Below, piece after piece: positions 1,907 to 7,595 of a stretch of 8,910 bases of DNA. Location of the stretch: IMG/VR virus record IMGVR_UViG_2778261536_000007; one strand, written 5' to 3'. Position numbers and translations under genes: made by a program. Origin of the DNA: a virus (taxonomy: Duplodnaviria > Heunggongvirae > Uroviricota > Caudoviricetes). Within the stretch, counting starts at the first letter, position 1; each line of letters begins with the position of its first letter. The notes under the pieces were generated by a model, which was given only the letters and a program-made list of their open reading frames with translations, made no database searches and was not told the DNA's origin.

Positions 1907-2408
1907 AATTCCATCCAGCTTTTTGTTGGTATTGCTGTCGATACGCAAGCTTGAAAGCAATTGCTTTTTCTATAAGTTCGTCAGTTTCACGATCCACTAC
2001 GGCAGGATCAGCAAAAAGCAGTCCGGACTCCACCACATCGCCATATTCTTTGTTTAACCCGGCGATCATGCACGTGATGCTTTTTCCGTCAGTAATTTCA
2101 CGATACAACCTGAAATCACTAATCCGGATAGCCTCCATAATCGCAGGCACTAGCGCCGTGAACTTTTCACGCTTATCCCTGGTGTCGATAGCCTTCCAGC
2201 GTTCGAATATCTTCACTCGATTAACACCAAGCGCTCGCTGATCAACCGCGCCACCTTCATCTGTGACACGCTGAACATCGATGTTCGGGCGCTCTTTCAA
2301 AGCCCAGAATGCTTCAGTGATTAATATCGTCGCCTGCTCCTGTGTCATTCCTGGTCGACATATCCAGGCATCCAGAGCCTCACGAGCCTGTTCAGGAGTG
2401 ATTTTCAT
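1887..2408 (-). CDS. Hypothetical protein (173 aa) in the cII position downstream of cro-like dicC
   Basis: ATG start at 2408. Overlaps the dicC stop by 17 nt and the replication gene start by about 20 nt. Function unknown; slot corresponds to cII/YdaT-like regulators. Confidence 0.5.
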   Translation of the reverse strand: MKITPEQAREALDAWICRPGMTQEQATILITEAFWALKERPNIDVQRVTDEGGAVDQRALGVNRVKIFERWKAIDTRDKREKFTALVPAIMEAIRISDFRLYREITDGKSITCMIAGLNKEYGDVVESGLLFADPAVVDRETDELIEKAIAFKLAYRQQYQQKAGWNYEPSFC

Positions 2409-2619
2409 TGTTCAACCGCCCCGCCCGCTTCGTCTTACGATATTCATCATAAACTTTGGGATCATACTGAAGCTCCCCGCCAGATGCCTCCTGTAGACGC
2501 ATCGCGCGACCTTCAGGAACCAGTATCCCCCAAGCAGCAACACTTGCCAGCCTCACTCCTGCGGCATTGGCAAGCTTTGTTTTGCTGCCAAAAAAAGTAA
2601 TTGCGTCAACTTTAAGCAT
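2392..2619 (-). CDS. dicC: Cro-like HTH regulator DicC
   Basis: Small HTH protein (GSKTKLANAAGVRLASVAAWG) divergent from the repressor gene. ATG at 2619 follows a strong SD (AGAGGGGG, 5 nt spacer). An in-frame TTG at 2622 would give 76 aa. Confidence 0.75.
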   Translation of the reverse strand: MLKVDAITFFGSKTKLANAAGVRLASVAAWGILVPEGRAMRLQEASGGELQYDPKVYDEYRKTKRAGRLNNENHS

Positions 2620-2631
2620 CAAAGCCCCCTC

Positions 2632-2699: not shown

Positions 2700-3107
2700 A
2701 TGGATACAAGAACCCTGGGCCAGCGAGTTCTGGCGCGACGAAAAGAATTACGCTTAACACAACGAGAAGCCGCGCGCCTCGCTGGAGTTGCTCACGTCAC
2801 AATTTCACAATGGGAAAGAGACGAAACCCAGCCAGTCGGAAAACGATTGTTTGCTTTAGCGGATGCTCTGAAGTGCTCACCTACATGGCTAATGTTTGGT
2901 GACGAAGACAAGGCACCAGTGCCTGCACAAGAACTTCATGTGGAAACAGAGCTAACTCCCAACCACAAAGAATTGATCGAATTATTCGATGCTCTTCCAT
3001 CTTCCGAGCAGGAAGCCTTGCTGTCTGAAATGCGCGCAAGAGTAGAAAACTTCAACAAACTCTTCGAAGAAATGCTTAAAGCGCGTAAAAATAAATCAAT
3101 AAAATAA
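2700..3107 (+). CDS. dicA: XRE-family HTH repressor DicA (cI-like, 135 aa)
   Basis: Classic HTH_3 domain (LTQREAARLAGVAHVTISQWE). 135 aa matches DicA. No SD upstream of the ATG; a TAGAAT -10-like hexamer at 2685-2690 suggests a leaderless transcript. Confidence 0.85.
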   Translation: MDTRTLGQRVLARRKELRLTQREAARLAGVAHVTISQWERDETQPVGKRLFALADALKCSPTWLMFGDEDKAPVPAQELHVETELTPNHKELIELFDALPSSEQEALLSEMRARVENFNKLFEEMLKARKNKSIK

Positions 3108-3141: not shown

Positions 3142-3163
3142 TTTGTTAGATCAATCTAACAAA
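3142..3163. promoter_or_regulatory. Operator palindrome TTTGTTAGA-tcaa-TCTAACAAA upstream of the dicB operon (OL-like)
   Basis: Perfect 9-bp inverted repeat with 4-bp spacer, same motif as at 2632-2651, lying between the dicA stop and ydfA. Confidence 0.7.
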
Positions 3164-3169
3164 AAACAC

Positions 3170-3198
3170 TTGCCTCTCATGTTAGGTTATTCTAAATT
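3170..3198 (+). promoter_or_regulatory. Candidate sigma70 promoter of the dicB operon (-35 TTGCCT, 17-bp spacer, -10 TAAATT)
   Basis: Hexamers with 17-bp spacing just downstream of the operator; a degenerate operator half-site pair (TGTTAG...CTAAA, 3180-3196) overlaps the -10. Confidence 0.4.
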
Positions 3199-3275
3199 AT
3201 TTTCCATCAAGACACCGCACGGTGTTCTCAGCAAACAGTTCCGCTACCCCGGCGTTAAGGGGAAATGAGGTCAGC

Positions 3276-3431
3276 ATGGATACTATCGATCTTGGCAACA
3301 GCGAATCTCTGGTATGTGGCGTGTTCCCCAACCAGGACGGTACGTTCACCGCGATGACGTATACCAAAAGCAAAACGTTTAAAACCGAAAATGGTGCCCG
3401 TCGCTGGCTGGAAAGAAACCCAGGTGAGTGA
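3276..3431 (+). CDS. ydfA: Small acidic protein YdfA (51 aa)
   Basis: ATG at 3276 preceded by GAGG (5 nt spacer); the track ORF from 3222 starts on GTG with no SD. Size and position match first gene of the Qin dicB operon. Confidence 0.7.
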   Translation: MDTIDLGNSESLVCGVFPNQDGTFTAMTYTKSKTFKTENGARRWLERNPGE

Positions 3432-3432
3432 T

Positions 3433-3561
3433 ATGGATTTCGACACAATCATGGAAAAGGCTTACGAAGAATACTTCGAAGGTCTTGCCGACGGCGAAGA
3501 AGCTCTCAGCTTCAACGAATTTAAACAGGCGCTTTCCAGTTCGGCAAAATCTAACGGCTGA
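3433..3561 (+). CDS. ydfB: Small protein YdfB (42 aa)
   Basis: Not in the ORF track (too short). ATG at 3433 follows AGGTGA with 5 nt spacer. Upstream stop overlaps (TGAtATG). Translation MDFDTIMEKAYEEYFEGLADGEEALSFNEFKQALSSSAKSNG. Confidence 0.6.
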   Translation: MDFDTIMEKAYEEYFEGLADGEEALSFNEFKQALSSSAKSNG

Positions 3562-3590
3562 TAAGCGAAACAGCACCGCGAGGAATCAGT

Positions 3591-3809
3591 ATGCAGAAAC
3601 GAGAACCCGTCATCATCGCGCCAGACTATACCGATGATGAACTTTATGAGTGGATGCGCCAGAAAATTAATGCAGCGCAGGATTTGAAATGGGCCAATGA
3701 AACCAGGGCTAAGCAGGCTGAAAATCTGTCCGCTCTGGAGCAGGATATCACCAATCTGGAAAAAGCAGCGGCATTAAGCATTGCCAGAATGATTACATAC
3801 CCGCGTTAG
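3591..3809 (+). CDS. ydfC: Small protein YdfC (72 aa)
   Basis: ATG preceded by GAGGA with 6 nt spacer. Size and position match ydfC of the Qin dicB operon. Confidence 0.7.
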   Translation: MQKREPVIIAPDYTDDELYEWMRQKINAAQDLKWANETRAKQAENLSALEQDITNLEKAAALSIARMITYPR

Positions 3810-4149
3810 TAGCTAATCAACAAAGCTAAGGTTAGTAATTAAGGAGTTCTCCACGGGTGAGGTGGAGTGCGTGCGCCGGACACGGGTGAGCATCCGGCAC
3901 TGACAGTTTACTGAAAGGATATTTCCCTGAAAAGTCAGACCATAACGCGAAAGCGCACGGCGAGGTAGCTGGTTCATAGATAGCCTGTCGTTAAATTTTC
4001 GTCGACCGTGCGCTTCCGGTTGTGGCAACCCGCGAAATGGCGCGGCGGTAAGTATGGCGGGGTTATTCCTTCCCCGTTGAGGACACCGGGTTGTCAGGTT
4101 GACCATACGCTTAAGTGACAACCCCGCTGCAACGCCCTCTGTTATCAAT

Positions 4150-4202
4150 TTTCTGGTGACGTTTGGCGGTATCAGTTTTACTCCGTGACTGCTCTGCCGC
4201 CC
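4150..4202 (+). ncRNA. dicF: DicF small regulatory RNA (53 nt), processed from the dicB operon transcript
   Basis: Sequence TTTCTGGTGACGTTTGGCGGTATCAGTTTTACTCCGTGACTGCTCTGCCGCCC matches DicF as I remember it. It sits between ydfC and dicB with no protein-like ORF and ends in a GC-rich stem plus T-run. Confidence 0.7.
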
Positions 4203-4207
4203 TTTTT
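4165..4207 (+). terminator. Rho-independent terminator-like 3' end of DicF (GGCGG...CCGCC stem followed by TTTTT)
   Basis: GGCGG (4165-4169) can pair with CCGCC (4197-4201), directly followed by TTTTT (4203-4207). Read-through is needed to express dicB downstream. Confidence 0.45.
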
Positions 4208-4376
4208 AAAGTGAATTTTGTGATGTGGTGAATGCGGCTGAGCGCACGCGGAACAGTTAAAACCAAAAACAGTGTTATGGGTGGATTCTCTGTATCCGGC
4301 GTTAATTGTTAACTGGTTAACGTCACCTGGAGGCACCAGGCACTGCATCACAAAATTCATTGTTGAGGACGCGATA

Positions 4377-4565
4377 ATGAAAACGTTATTACCAAACGTT
4401 AATACGTCTGAAGGTTGTTTTGAAATTGGTGTCACTATCAGTAACCCAGTATTTACTGAAGATGCCATTAACAAGAGAAAACAAGAACGGGAGCTATTAA
4501 ATAAAATATGCATTGTTTCAATGCTGGCTCGTTTACGTCTGATGCCAAAAGGATGTGCACAATGA
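4377..4565 (+). CDS. dicB: Cell-division inhibitor DicB (62 aa)
   Basis: ATG at 4377 preceded by GAGGA with 7 nt spacer; the longer track ORF from 4272 has no start signal. Translation MKTLLPNVNTSEGCFEIGV... and 62-aa length match DicB. Confidence 0.8.
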   Translation: MKTLLPNVNTSEGCFEIGVTISNPVFTEDAINKRKQERELLNKICIVSMLARLRLMPKGCAQ

Positions 4566-4753
4566 ATTCAGCATTTGTGCTTGTTCTGACAGTTTTTCTT
4601 GTTTCCGGAGAGCCAGTTGATATTGCAGTCAGTGTGCACAGGACAATGCAGGAGTGTATGACTGCAGCAACCGAACAGAAAATTCCCGGTAACTGTTACC
4701 CGGTCGATAAAGTTATTCACCAGGATAATATCGAAATCCCGGCAGGTCTTTAA
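4562..4753 (+). CDS. ydfD: Small protein YdfD (63 aa) with N-terminal hydrophobic segment, lysis-associated
   Basis: ATG at 4562 overlaps the dicB stop (ATGA), AAGGA 8 nt upstream. N-terminal hydrophobic stretch AFVLVLTVFLV followed by a Cys-containing soluble part. Confidence 0.75.
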   Translation: MNSAFVLVLTVFLVSGEPVDIAVSVHRTMQECMTAATEQKIPGNCYPVDKVIHQDNIEIPAGL

Positions 4754-4846
4754 AACAGTTCCGTAATAAATATCCGGTTTCATTCTTATATGCCAGCAAT
4801 GGCAGGGATTTGTTCATCCTTAAATCTGTCATGAGGTTAAAACAAA

Positions 4847-5104
4847 ATGAGTAAAGTCTTTATTTGCGCCGCTATTCCTGACGAACTGGCAACAAGGGAA
4901 GAAGGCGCTGTGGCTGTAGCCACAGCCATTGAAGCTGGCGACGAACGCCGTGCTCGAGCAAAATTTCACTGGCAGTTCCTGGAACATTATCCGGCTGCTC
5001 AGGACTGCGCTTATAAATTTATTGTCTGCGAGGATAAACCTGGCATACCCCGCCCTGCCCTCGATTCATGGGATGCTGAATATGCAGGAAAACCGCTGGG
5101 ATGA
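4847..5104 (+). CDS. Hypothetical small protein (85 aa) preceding the exonuclease gene
   Basis: ATG with GAGG about 10 nt upstream. Its 3' end overlaps the beginning of the long exonuclease ORF in another frame. Confidence 0.55.
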   Translation: MSKVFICAAIPDELATREEGAVAVATAIEAGDERRARAKFHWQFLEHYPAAQDCAYKFIVCEDKPGIPRPALDSWDAEYAGKPLG

Positions 5105-7271
5105 GGAGTCTGCTTCTTTTGTCCCGGTTGAGACTGAATCCGATCCGATGAACGTCACTTTTGACAAGCTGGCCCCTGAAGTACAGAACGCTGTCATGGT
5201 TAAGTTCGACACATGTGAAAACATCACCGTTGATATGGTTATTAGCGCACAGGAATTGTTGCAGGAAGACATGGCAACATTCGACGGACATATCGTTGAA
5301 GCGTTGATGAAAATGCCAGAAGTTAACGCCATGTATCCGGAGCTTAAGTTGCACGCCATTGGGTGGGTTAAGCATAAATGTATTCCTGGTGCTAAATGGC
5401 CCGAAATTCAGGCAGAGATGCGCATCTGGAAAAAACGTCGCGAAGGTGAACGCAAGGAAACCGGAAAATACACGTCTGTTGTTGATCTCGCCCGCGCCAG
5501 AACCAATCAACAGTACACTGAAAATTCAACAGGAAAAATCAGCCCGGTCATTGCTGCCATTCATCGCGAATACAAGCAGACATGGAAAACACTGGATGAC
5601 GAACTGGCCTACGCTCTCTGGCCTGGTGATGTGGATGCCGGAAACATTGACGGCAGCATCCATCGCTGGGCAAAAAAAGAAGTTATCGACAACGACCGCG
5701 AAGACTGGAAGCGTATCTCGGCATCAATGCGCAAACAGCCTGATGCCCTTCGCTACGACCGCCAGACTATTTTTGGCCTTGTCCGTGAGCGTCCGATCGA
5801 CATTCACAAAGATCCCATAGCACTGAACAAATATATCTGCGAATACCTGACGACAAAGGGCGTGTTTGAGAATGAAGAAACAGACCTGGGCACTGTTGAT
5901 GTTCTCCAGTCATCAGAAACACAAACTGATGCAGTGGAAACTGAGGTATCTGATATCCCAAAAAATGAAACCGCGCCGGAAGCTGAACCATCTGTAGAGC
6001 GTGAGGGGCCGTTCTATTTCCTCTTCGCAGATAAGGACGGAGAAAAATACGGTCGCGCAAACAAACTTTCTGGTCTGGATAAGGCACTGGCTGCTGGCGC
6101 CACTGAAATCACAAAAGAAGAATATTTTGCCCGAAAAAATGGCACATACACGGGCTTACCGCAAAATGTAGATACCGCTGAAGATTCAGAACAACCAGAG
6201 CCGATAAAAGTTACCGCTGACGAAGTAAACAAAATTATGCAGGCAGCCAATATCAGCCAGCCTGACGCCGATAAGTTGCTTGCTGCATCACGTGGTGAAT
6301 TTGTTGAAGGGATTAGTGACCCGAATGATCCGAAATGGGTTAAGGGGATCCAGACCCGCGATTCTGTGAACCAGAACCAGCATGAATCGGAACGGAACTA
6401 CCAAAAAGCGGAACAAAACAGCACAAATGCGTTACAAAACGAGCCAGAAACGAAACAGCCTGAACCAGTGGCGCAACTGGAAGTGGAAAAAGTCTGCACC
6501 GCCTGCGGTCAGACCGGCGGCGGCAACTGCCCTGATTGTGGCGCGGTGATGGGCGACGCAACATACCAGGAAACATTCGATGAAGAGTATCAGGTTGAAG
6601 TTCAGGAAGATGATCTGGAGGAAATGGAAGGCGCTGAACATCCACACAAGGAGAACACTGGCGGCAATCAGCATCACAATAGCGATAATGAAACTGGCGA
6701 GACGGCAGATCACTCAATTAAGGTGAACGGTCATCACGAAATCACATCCACCAGCAGGACGTGTGACCATCTAATGATCGACCTTGAAACCATGGGAAAA
6801 AATCCTGATGCCCCGATCATCTCAATAGGTGCAATATTTTTCGATCTGGAAACTGCTGGCGGAGTCATTGATCGGGACACCATTAAATGGTGGCTTAAGC
6901 AATCACGCGAAGCGCAATCTGCCATTATGACCGATGAAATCCCGTTAGATGATGCACTGTTACAATTGCGGGAATTTATCGACGAAAACTCCGGTGAATT
7001 TTTTGTTCAGGTTTGGGGAAATGGAGCCAACTTCGACAACACGATTTTGCGCCGTTCATACGAACGGCAGGGGATCCCCTGCCCGTGGCGTTACTACAAC
7101 GATCGCGATGTACGCACAATCGTTGAGCTGGGGAAAGCCATAGACTTCGATGCCAGAACGGCTATTCCATTCGAAGGTGAGCGCCATAATGCACTTGATG
7201 ACGCCCGTTACCAGGCAAAATACGTTTCAGTTATCTGGCAAAAACTGATCCCGAGTCAGGCTGATTCTTAA
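5082..7271 (+). CDS. RecE-like protein (annotated in databases as exodeoxyribonuclease VIII) with C-terminal DEDDh (DnaQ/RNase T-like) 3'-5' exonuclease domain
   Basis: Track ORF 4929-7271 starts on TTG inside the upstream gene; first in-frame ATGs are 5073 and 5082. Middle segment DKLLAASRGEFVEGISDPNDPKWVKGIQTRD resembles E. coli RecE as I remember it. C-terminal about 170 aa carry DEDDh motifs: DLETMG, WGNGANFDN, HNALDDARYQ. Confidence 0.75.
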   Translation: MQENRWDEESASFVPVETESDPMNVTFDKLAPEVQNAVMVKFDTCENITVDMVISAQELLQEDMATFDGHIVEALMKMPEVNAMYPELKLHAIGWVKHKCIPGAKWPEIQAEMRIWKKRREGERKETGKYTSVVDLARARTNQQYTENSTGKISPVIAAIHREYKQTWKTLDDELAYALWPGDVDAGNIDGSIHRWAKKEVIDNDREDWKRISASMRKQPDALRYDRQTIFGLVRERPIDIHKDPIALNKYICEYLTTKGVFENEETDLGTVDVLQSSETQTDAVETEVSDIPKNETAPEAEPSVEREGPFYFLFADKDGEKYGRANKLSGLDKALAAGATEITKEEYFARKNGTYTGLPQNVDTAEDSEQPEPIKVTADEVNKIMQAANISQPDADKLLAASRGEFVEGISDPNDPKWVKGIQTRDSVNQNQHESERNYQKAEQNSTNALQNEPETKQPEPVAQLEVEKVCTACGQTGGGNCPDCGAVMGDATYQETFDEEYQVEVQEDDLEEMEGAEHPHKENTGGNQHHNSDNETGETADHSIKVNGHHEITSTSRTCDHLMIDLETMGKNPDAPIISIGAIFFDLETAGGVIDRDTIKWWLKQSREAQSAIMTDEIPLDDALLQLREFIDENSGEFFVQVWGNGANFDNTILRRSYERQGIPCPWRYYNDRDVRTIVELGKAIDFDARTAIPFEGERHNALDDARYQAKYVSVIWQKLIPSQADS

Positions 7272-7343: not shown

Positions 7344-7595
7344 ATGAGCGAAGTAATCATGATTGTCTCTCCCGGCAAATGGGTATCCGAAGAGCAGTTA
7401 ATTGCGCTGAAAGGAATAAAAAAAGGTACGTTAAAAAAGGCCCGGGAAAAATCGTTTATGGAAGGAAGGGAATATAAGCATGTCGCTCATGACGGTATGC
7501 CATGGGATAACAGCCCATGCTTTTACAACCTGGAAGAAATTGATCGCTGGATTGAGCGCCAGGCATCAGCGAGACCAAGACGTCATCTTACTTGA
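7344..7595 (+). CDS. xis: Excisionase (lambda Xis-like)
   Basis: 83-aa protein directly upstream of the integrase; the motif EGREYKH resembles the lambda Xis DNA-binding region. Confidence 0.7.
   Translation: MSEVIMIVSPGKWVSEEQLIALKGIKKGTLKKAREKSFMEGREYKHVAHDGMPWDNSPCFYNLEEIDRWIERQASARPRRHLT

What the first reader, a model, noticed from the sequence alone, without database searches (positions are those of the whole stretch)
4150..4207. DicF sRNA embedded in the operon
The 53-nt sequence matches DicF, a prophage sRNA that represses ftsZ and other host mRNAs. Together with dicB this locus gives the prophage two independent routes to block host division. It also means an apparently gene-free segment is functional RNA and not a gap.
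Basis: partly seen in the sequence, partly recalled or inferred. Interest (0 to 1): 0.5.

Follow-up and report, generated by a model that had tools for sequence, protein, structure and literature searches.

The report
DicF small RNA in Qin-like prophage

Summary
Confirmed and ordinary. Window 4150-4202 (+) is 53/53 identical to E. coli K-12 dicF (b1574). It matches Rfam DicF (RF00039) over the full model at 76.7 bits (gathering score 48, E 5e-16). Bases 4203-4207 are the T-run of its intrinsic terminator. The gene lies between ydfC and an intact dicB (62/62 aa identical to K-12) in the ydfABC-dicF-dicB-ydfD operon of a Qin-like prophage. Window 3959-4635 has no difference from K-12, so the published facts apply directly: RNase E makes the 5' end, the 3' end comes from termination or RNase III, and the RNA represses ftsZ, xylR, pykA and manX with Hfq. 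DicF is present in 3975 of 5426 complete E. coli genomes.

Two caveats. DicF fills only 53 of the 567 nt between ydfC and dicB. My in-silico DicF-ftsZ pairing energy was no better than shuffled controls, so the function rests on sequence identity plus published experiments.

Side observation: the 116 nt just upstream (4018-4133), the body of the known 190-nt DicF precursor, is a discrete conserved block with covariation support. It also occurs in other lambdoid phages and in P1/P7, always followed by a terminator hairpin. It has no Rfam family, and its function is unknown.

The parts
4150..4202 (+). dicF, the mature 53-nt DicF sRNA
   Evidence: Exact 53/53 match to K-12 b1574. Rfam RF00039 76.7 bits, gathering score 48.
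4150..4164 (+). Single-stranded 5' region of DicF. The literature assigns xylR pairing to the 5' end.
   Evidence: Unpaired in the MFE and centroid fold and in the Rfam consensus. The 5'-end role in xylR pairing is from PMC5069750.
4165..4207 (+). DicF 3' stem-loop (4165-4201) plus C4202 and the T5 tail (4203-4207). It is an intrinsic terminator, and its 3' region pairs with ftsZ and pykA.
   Evidence: Fold -15.9 kcal/mol, z -2.18. All Rfam pairs are canonical. Termination gives the 53-nt species (PMC5069750). The simple terminator scan missed it because the loop is 9 nt and the stem is bulged.
4149..4150 (+). Position of the RNase E cleavage that makes the DicF 5' end (CAAU|UUUCUGG)
   Evidence: Inferred from the annotated K-12 5' end and the RNase E dependence of the 53-nt species. 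Not tested here.
4018..4133 (+). Conserved structured block forming the body of the 190-nt DicF precursor (about 4013-4202)
   Evidence: Identical to K-12. 78-89% conserved in cdtI, 2H10, Stx2c, F1055, pPE4, P1 and P7 phages. 74 distinct variants from viral contigs. Proposed structure 94.2% paired against 35-52% in slid controls, with 6 pairs changed on both sides. Covariance model R1 scores 140.4 bits. No Rfam family at E<=1.
3948..4018 (+). Inverted repeat I2 (3948-3960 / 4006-4018), a candidate RNase III stem. The predicted 5' end of the 190-nt species (about 4013) lies in its right arm.
   Evidence: 13 nt, 92% complementary. The position is my arithmetic, so this is an inference.
4203..4376 (+). 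dicF-dicB leader, including the long-range stem I1 (4212-4230 / 4341-4359). The predicted 3' end of the 72-nt RNase III species (about 4221) lies in the left arm.
   Evidence: 19 nt, 89% complementary. The 72-nt species is from PMC5069750. Sub-threshold full-length Rfam STnc100 match at 4200-4409, 34.4 bits against a gathering score of 47, whose outer stem is I1. Nearly invariant across dicB-linked and kil-linked loci.
4377..4565 (+). dicB, the MinC-dependent division inhibitor
   Evidence: 62/62 aa identical to K-12 DicB. Pfam PF05358 134.6 bits.
4562..4753 (+). ydfD
   Evidence: RefSeq annotation of the near-identical locus L001 and of K-12. One nucleotide difference from K-12.
3276..3809 (+). 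ydfA (3276-3431), ydfB (3433-3561) and ydfC (3591-3809), the upstream genes of the operon
   Evidence: Annotation of L001 and K-12 transferred by alignment.
3143..3198 (+). Control region at the position of K-12 dicBp. It contains the palindrome TTGTTAGATCAATCTAACAA (3143-3162) and the hexamers TTGCCT (3170-3175) and TAAATT (3193-3198), 17 nt apart.
   Evidence: Alignment with the K-12 dicA-ydfA intergenic region. The hexamers score 8/12, below the scan's cut-off, so they were not flagged. Assignment is by position only, so this is inferred.
2700..3107 (+). DicA-like repressor gene, a variant immunity type
   Evidence: 135 aa, 57% identical to K-12 DicA. Annotated as an HTH protein in L001.
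2392..2622 (-). DicC/Cro-like gene
   Evidence: 86% identical to K-12 DicC.

Best explanation
Window 4150-4202 (+) is the dicF gene of a Qin-like lambdoid prophage of E. coli. It has no promoter of its own.

Transcription. It is transcribed as part of the ydfABC-dicF-dicB-ydfD operon from a promoter (about 3170-3198) just downstream of a DicA-like repressor gene. That repressor normally keeps the promoter off.

Processing. RNase III cuts a stem upstream (about 4013) to give a 190-nt intermediate. RNase E cuts at 4149|4150 to give the mature 5' end. The 3' end arises either by intrinsic termination at the GC-rich hairpin and U-run (4165-4207), giving the 53-nt form, or by RNase III cleavage in the 4212-4230/4341-4359 stem of read-through transcripts, giving the 72-nt form.

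Action. Mature DicF binds Hfq. Its 3' region base-pairs with the ribosome-binding regions of ftsZ and pykA mRNAs, and its 5' region with xylR mRNA. This blocks translation, and loss of FtsZ causes filamentation. Read-through transcripts also express DicB, which inhibits division through MinC.

Basis. Shown here: identity, structure, context and integrity of the parts. Taken from the literature on the identical K-12 sequence: processing, Hfq dependence and targets. Inferred: the exact cut positions and the promoter hexamers in this window.
For: Exact 53/53 identity to K-12 dicF, with identical flanks. No difference from K-12 anywhere in 3959-4635. Rfam DicF 76.7 bits, full length, E 5e-16, the only gathering-level hit in the window. 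Predicted terminator hairpin plus T5. Syntenic operon with intact dicB. 100% identity of window 3500-5000 to many E. coli chromosomes. The element is in 3975 of 5426 complete E. coli genomes. Inverted repeats lie where the published RNA lengths place the RNase III cuts. [quoted passage not shown]
Against: Nothing contradicts the identification. Weak points:
- My in-silico DicF-ftsZ duplex spans the Shine-Dalgarno region and start codon, but it is not significantly better than dinucleotide shuffles (z -1.7, 51/1000; cofold ddG z +0.14). Pairing is therefore not demonstrated computationally here.
- The repressor is only 57% identical to K-12 DicA and the operators differ. Induction conditions known for K-12, such as Rem, may not transfer.
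- The host's own ftsZ sequence is not in the window; K-12 ftsZ was used.
- Expression in this strain is untested.
Confidence: 0.97

Rival explanations
1. The hairpin is functionally just the intrinsic terminator or attenuator separating ydfABC from dicB. In this strain the released 53-nt RNA would be a by-product with no trans-acting role, for example because the operon is never derepressed.
For: The structure is a bona fide terminator. Related phages carry unrelated terminator hairpins at the same place after the conserved upstream block, so a terminator at this position is the conserved feature. The repressor here is a different immunity type.
Against: The sequence is identical to an RNA shown, by compensatory mutations, to regulate ftsZ, xylR and pykA in trans (PMC5069750). 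The single-stranded 5' seed and loop are conserved to the base across thousands of genomes, which a mere terminator would not require. The two roles are also not mutually exclusive.
Confidence: 0.02
2. The stretch is protein-coding. Mechanical ORFs overlap it on the minus strand (4111-4266, 51 aa; 4178-4513, 111 aa), and several phage records annotate 'hypothetical protein' across it.
For: The ORFs exist. 'Hypothetical protein' features lie under the match in several phage records.
Against: There are no Pfam or PHROG hits for either ORF. One uses a TTG start, and the other runs antisense through dicB. The K-12 and RefSeq annotations have no gene there. The RNA model explains the conservation fully.
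Confidence: 0.01

Closest known systems
DicF of E. coli K-12 cryptic prophage Qin (b1574; Rfam RF00039)
   Same: Identical 53-nt sequence and identical flanks from 3959 to 4635. Same operon order ydfA-ydfB-ydfC-dicF-dicB-ydfD. The near-identical locus L001 (CFSAN064036) ends its prophage next to a truncated zinc-binding dehydrogenase gene, as K-12 Qin does next to rspB.
   Different: The surrounding prophage is less decayed than K-12 Qin. There is no IS2, and a long exonuclease ORF, xis and int are present. The repressor is a 57%-identical DicA variant with different operators. The region left of dicC carries ydaT-like and DUF977 genes absent from K-12 Qin.
KilS sRNA (b4833) upstream of kilR in prophage Rac
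   Same: Same position in the early-left operon, immediately upstream of a small division-inhibitor gene. The 3' part of KilS gives a sub-threshold DicF match (39.1 bits). It has the same GGCGG/CCGCC terminator scaffold and is followed by the same highly conserved leader.
   Different: The 5' seed and loop sequences differ. It is below Rfam's DicF threshold. It lacks the 116-nt upstream block. The downstream gene is kilR, not dicB. KilS was reported with a possible promoter of its own, and the paper does not mention DicF (PMC8175672).
'dicF-like region' in the ban operon leader of phages P1 and P7
   Same: It shares the 116-nt structured block found upstream of DicF (77-82% identity), followed by an intrinsic-terminator hairpin. 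It also sits just downstream of a repressor-controlled early promoter.
   Different: The similarity is to the precursor body, not to the 53-nt DicF. There is no Rfam DicF hit in P1 or P7 at E<=0.1. The downstream genes are tRNAs and ban rather than dicB.
STnc100 (Rfam RF02076), a prophage-encoded sRNA of Salmonella and E. coli
   Same: The dicF-dicB leader (4200-4409) aligns over the full 206-position model, including the outer stem and the CACCUGGAGGCACCAGGCAC hairpin.
   Different: The score of 34.4 bits is below the gathering score of 47, so it is not a member by Rfam's criterion. Here the sequence is the 5' leader of dicB rather than a demonstrated separate sRNA.

Membership tests
DicF (Rfam RF00039) | Match to the family covariance model at or above the curated gathering score | tested here: met
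   76.7 bits against 48, E 5e-16, model 1-52/52, no non-canonical pairs.
DicF (Rfam RF00039) | Sequence identity with the type member (E. coli K-12 dicF, 53 nt) | tested here: met
   53/53 identical at window 4150-4202, and the flanks are identical too.
DicF (Rfam RF00039) | 3' GC-rich stem-loop followed by a U-run (intrinsic terminator, Hfq-type sRNA 3' end) | tested here: met
   MFE and centroid stem-loop at 4165-4201, -15.9 kcal/mol, z -2.18, followed by T5 at 4203-4207.
DicF (Rfam RF00039) | Location inside the dicBF operon of a lambdoid prophage, between ydfC and dicB, under a DicA-type repressor | tested here: met
   Gene order confirmed against K-12 and RefSeq annotation. dicB is intact. 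The repressor is a 57% DicA homologue.
DicF (Rfam RF00039) | Antisense pairing of the 3' region with the ftsZ translation-initiation region | tested here: inconclusive
   The predicted duplex covers ftsZ -29 to +19, including the SD and AUG. However, its energy is not distinguishable from shuffled DicF (z -1.71, 51/1000; cofold ddG z +0.14). Pairing is established experimentally for the identical RNA (PMC5069750).
DicF (Rfam RF00039) | Generation by RNase E (5' end) and termination or RNase III (3' end); Hfq binding; accumulation as 53-nt and 190-nt species | not testable with these tools
   Literature only. The sequence features are consistent: an AU-rich site at 4149|4150 and inverted repeats at the predicted RNase III positions.
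HK022 put antitermination RNA (considered for the upstream block 4018-4133) | Detectable sequence and structure similarity to putL/putR; about 70 nt, two stem-loops | tested here: not met
   Covariance model R1 of the block finds nothing in the HK022 genome at E<=10. The block is 116 nt with four or five helices, whereas put is about 70 nt with two stems (PMC9378689).
STnc100 (Rfam RF02076) (considered for the dicF-dicB leader 4200-4409) | Match at or above the gathering score | tested here: not met
   34.4 bits against 47, although the match is full length with E 1.7e-5.

The most novel reading that the evidence does not exclude
The 116-nt block immediately upstream of DicF (window 4018-4133, identical in K-12) may not be a passive precursor segment. 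It could be a distinct, uncatalogued structured RNA domain shared by Qin-like and cdtI/Stx2c-type lambdoid phages and by P1/P7. In every context seen it lies in an early, repressor-controlled transcript directly upstream of an intrinsic terminator. It could act in cis on that terminator, setting the ratio of terminated DicF to read-through dicB, or it could direct RNase III and RNase E processing.
Probability: 0.35. Interest if true: 0.45.

Novelty: already known. Interest (0 to 1): 0.1.

Why it matters
For the finding itself this is mainly an annotation point. dicF was discovered around 1990, and its targets and processing are well characterised. The listed RefSeq (PGAP) rows for the same sequence annotate nothing under it, and some phage records place hypothetical proteins across it. 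Recognising it prevents mis-annotation. It also flags that this strain carries a toxic, repressor-controlled pair of division inhibitors, here in a prophage that still has xis and int. The only forward-looking value lies in the side observations. The DicF precursor body is a conserved, co-varying RNA block shared with P1-like and other lambdoid phages. DicF and KilS look like interchangeable sRNA cartridges in one conserved cassette upstream of different division inhibitors.

Tried and rejected
(1) RNAduplex and cofold of DicF against K-12 ftsZ (-80..+40 and -40..+20). The duplex covers the SD and AUG, but the energy is not better than mono- or dinucleotide shuffles, so it is not used as evidence.

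(2) Folding the 291-nt context 3985-4275 gave z -1.19, not distinguishable from shuffles. The MFE did not even retain the terminator hairpin, so no processing stems were read from it.

(3) The simple promoter and terminator scan found neither the dicF terminator (9-nt loop, bulged stem) nor a + strand promoter upstream of ydfA (hexamers 8/12). This is explained by the scan's rules and is not evidence of absence.

(4) Coding rivals. Pfam and PHROG searches of the five ORFs overlapping or filling the gap returned nothing apart from DicB itself and a partial phrog_8854 match for ORF 4008-4118. That ORF is rejected because natural variants carry 1-, 4- and 5-nt indels in the P3 hairpin and upstream in-frame stops truncate it.

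(5) put-like homology of the upstream block: no hit in HK022.

(6) A tRNA or tmRNA-like identity for the block: ARAGORN found nothing.

(7) The genome-contig scan with GGCGCGGCGGYAAGYATGG was meant to broaden covariation. Most of the 120 hits were chance matches in GC-rich genomes; only Escherichia and P1-like copies were real.

(8) The P1 genome paper (tried as PMC523184) is not held, so the origin of the 'dicF-like region' label could not be read.

Full report
1. THE OBSERVATION

The sequence at 4150-4207 reads TTTCTGGTGACGTTTGGCGGTATCAGTTTTACTCCGTGACTGCTCTGCCGCCC followed by TTTTT. A cmscan of the whole window against Rfam 15 at gathering thresholds returns exactly one hit. It is RF00039 DicF at 4151-4202 (+), 76.7 bits (gathering score 48), E 5e-16, covering model positions 1-52 of 52 with no non-canonical pair.

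The K-12 MG1655 record annotates dicF (b1574) as a 53-nt ncRNA at 1649382-1649434. That sequence occurs exactly at window 4150-4202. A 91-nt alignment including 20 nt of flank on each side is 100% identical.

2. CONTEXT

Window 3500-5000 is 100% identical to many E. coli chromosomes. In one of them (L001, strain CFSAN064036) and in K-12, the annotated order is: Cro/DicC-like (-), DicA-like repressor (+), ydfA, ydfB, ydfC, [dicF], dicB, ydfD, exonuclease, xis, int.

Transferred to the window, the coordinates are:
- DicC-like: 2392-2622 (-)
- Repressor: 2700-3107
- ydfA: 3276-3431
- ydfB: 3433-3561
- ydfC: 3591-3809
- dicF: 4150-4202
- dicB: 4377-4565
- ydfD: 4562-4753
- Exonuclease: from 4847
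- xis: 7344-7595
- int: from 7615

In L001 the prophage ends next to a truncated zinc-binding dehydrogenase gene. K-12 Qin ends next to rspB in the same way. The window therefore comes from a Qin-like prophage that is less decayed than K-12 Qin, with no IS2 and with xis and int present.

DicB is 62/62 identical to K-12 DicB and matches Pfam DicB at 134.6 bits. A base-by-base comparison with K-12 from the promoter region to the end of ydfD shows no difference at all between 3959 and 4635. That interval covers the precursor, dicF, the dicB leader and dicB.

The control region does differ. The repressor is only 57% identical to DicA and DicC is 86% identical. The operator and promoter segment diverges up to about 3211, after which the transcribed region is near-identical. 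By position, the promoter hexamers are TTGCCT (3170-3175) and TAAATT (3193-3198). These are too weak for the simple scan to flag.

3. ANATOMY OF THE RNA

Folded alone, 4150-4210 gives a 15-nt single-stranded 5' region. It is followed by a bulged stem-loop (4165-4201, -15.9 kcal/mol, z -2.18) and a U-run, matching the Rfam consensus.

The literature on the identical K-12 RNA states the following:
- The operon transcript starts at dicBp upstream of ydfA and is repressed by DicA.
- RNase III cleavage gives a 190-nt species, and RNase E gives the 53-nt 5' end (bioRxiv 10.1101/2023.04.14.536235).
- The 3' end comes from Rho-independent termination (53 nt) or from RNase III processing of read-through mRNA (72 nt) (PMC5069750).
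- DicF binds Hfq. Its 3' region pairs with ftsZ and pykA and its 5' region with xylR, as validated by compensatory mutations (PMC5069750).

Converting the published lengths to window coordinates puts the 190-nt 5' end near 4013 and the 72-nt 3' end near 4221. Both fall inside arms of inverted repeats found independently: I2 (3948-3960/4006-4018) and I1 (4212-4230/4341-4359, 19 nt). That is what a double-strand-specific nuclease requires. The assignment is an inference, but it is consistent.

4. WHAT I COULD NOT SHOW

I tested DicF against the K-12 ftsZ initiation region. The best duplex spans -29 to +19, including the Shine-Dalgarno sequence and the AUG. Its energy is not significantly better than shuffled DicF: z -1.71 with 51 of 1000 shuffles as good, and a cofold ddG z of +0.14. 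The computational test is therefore inconclusive, and the functional claim rests on identity with the RNA studied experimentally. A fold of the 291-nt context was also uninformative.

5. RIVALS

Minus-strand ORFs overlap dicF (4111-4266 and 4178-4513), and some phage records annotate hypothetical proteins there. These ORFs have no Pfam or PHROG support.

The idea that the element is only a terminator is compatible with the structure. It does not explain base-perfect conservation of the unpaired seed and loop, nor the published trans-acting effects.

6. HOW COMMON IT IS

A 76-nt query centred on dicF matches 3975 of 5426 complete E. coli genomes, with up to 7 copies per genome and 3044 records at >=99% identity. 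The listed RefSeq rows show no annotated feature under it.

It is also present at >=99% identity in 14 sequenced phage records. A 2016 statement that phage databases held no DicF or DicB hit (PMC5069750) is therefore out of date.

7. THE REST OF THE 'GAP'

DicF fills 53 of the 567 nt between ydfC and dicB. Two other conserved elements lie there.

(a) The dicB leader (4203-4376). It gives a full-length but sub-threshold match to Rfam STnc100 (34.4 bits against a gathering score of 47), and the model's outer stem is I1. The same leader is nearly invariant upstream of kil or kilR in Rac-type and Stx phages and in K-12 Rac. In those loci it is preceded by a DicF-like hairpin scoring 34-41 bits. 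In K-12 Rac that hairpin lies inside the annotated sRNA KilS. The KilS paper does not mention DicF.

(b) The 116 nt at 4018-4133, which form the body of the 190-nt precursor, are a discrete block.
- The block is absent from the Rac-type loci.
- It is 78-89% conserved in phage cdtI, 2H10, Stx2c phages, Salmonella F1055 and pPE4. It also occurs in the ban-operon leader of P1 and P7, where the P1 record labels it 'dicF-like region'.
- In each case a terminator hairpin follows, but those loci have no Rfam DicF.
- A viral-contig scan gave 74 distinct variants.
- A model with a closing stem, three hairpins, a short helix and a loop pseudoknot is 94.2% paired, against 35-52% when partners are slid. 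Six pairs change on both sides.
- The variable hairpin changes sequence and length, with indels of 1, 4 and 5 nt, while staying paired. That argues against the small ORF 4008-4118 and its partial PHROG hit.
- No Rfam family matches at E<=1.
- A covariance model of the block scores 140 bits on the window and on K-12, but finds nothing in HK022, so it is not a put homologue.
- A species-representative genome scan recovered real copies only in Escherichia species and P1-like elements; the other hits were chance matches.

The function of this block is unknown. A cis effect on the adjacent terminator or on processing is a hypothesis only.

8. VERDICT

The feature is a textbook, experimentally characterised sRNA present in most E. 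coli genomes, so its novelty is 'already known' and its interest is low. The modest residual interest lies in the uncatalogued structured block upstream of DicF and in the DicF/KilS cassette relationship.

Noticed in passing
window 4018-4133 (+); identical in K-12 at L002:5251-5366: A discrete 116-nt conserved block forms the body of the 190-nt DicF precursor. It also occurs in cdtI, 2H10, Stx2c, F1055 and pPE4 phages and in the P1/P7 ban leader, always followed by a terminator hairpin. It has covariation support (94% paired, 6 double-sided changes, a possible pseudoknot GUAUGG/CCAUAC). It has no Rfam family and no HK022 put homology. Function unknown.
   Followed up: partly
window 4200-4409 (+): The dicF-dicB leader gives a full-length, sub-threshold match to Rfam STnc100 (34.4 bits against a gathering score of 47). 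Its outer stem is the 19-nt inverted repeat 4212-4230/4341-4359. This leader is nearly invariant upstream of both dicB and kil/kilR in different prophages, more conserved than the sRNA in front of it.
   Followed up: partly
L009 2406-2503 (-) (K-12 Rac, kilS); L005 1190-1244; L006 1152-1206; L008 1409-1459: Rac-type and Stx phages carry a sub-threshold DicF-like hairpin (34-41 bits) at the equivalent position upstream of kil. In K-12 it lies inside the annotated sRNA KilS. DicF and KilS look like positional and structural counterparts in one cassette (sRNA-terminator, conserved leader, small division inhibitor). The KilS paper does not mention DicF.
   Followed up: partly
window 2700-3107 and 3143-3211: The repressor is only 57% identical to K-12 DicA, and the operator/promoter segment differs (palindrome TTGTTAGATCAATCTAACAA at 3143-3162). 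The transcribed operon beyond about 3211 is near-identical. This looks like a different immunity type driving the same dicBF cargo.
   Followed up: partly
window ~5079 and ~6840 (exonuclease gene 4847-7271): Relative to the near-identical locus L001, the window lacks 2 bp (AT) at about 5079. This splits the exonuclease into ORFs 4847-5104 and 4929-7271 in different frames. It also lacks 45 bp in frame at about 6840. The cause could be a pseudogene or a sequencing error.
   Followed up: partly
window 4155-4163 and 4319-4327: The DicF 5' seed GGUGACGUU is perfectly complementary (9 nt) to a site in the dicB leader about 50 nt upstream of the dicB start. This could sequester the seed in read-through transcripts or let DicF act on dicB mRNA. 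About 0.7 such pairs are expected by chance in 600 nt, so the evidence is weak.
   Followed up: no
window 4008-4118 (+): A 36-aa GTG ORF partially matches phrog_8854 (profile 29-53 of 59, E 7e-12). It is probably a spurious phage ORF family called over the conserved RNA block, since natural variants carry frame-breaking 1-, 4- and 5-nt indels.
   Followed up: partly
L225 ~4560-4680 (-) (genome-contig hit; organism title not displayed): A DicF variant keeps the upstream block and the 5' seed UUUUCUGGUGACGUUUGGCGG but has a different 3' hairpin (GGCGGCAUCUGUUUGCCCAUGAACUGAUGUCCGCC). The ftsZ-pairing part is replaced, which suggests modular evolution of the sRNA.
   Followed up: no
public records matching window 4140-4215: The listed RefSeq/PGAP E. 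coli records show no feature under dicF, and several phage records place 'hypothetical protein' CDSs across it. DicF is also now found at >=99% identity in 14 sequenced phage records, contrary to a 2016 report of no phage hits.
   Followed up: partly
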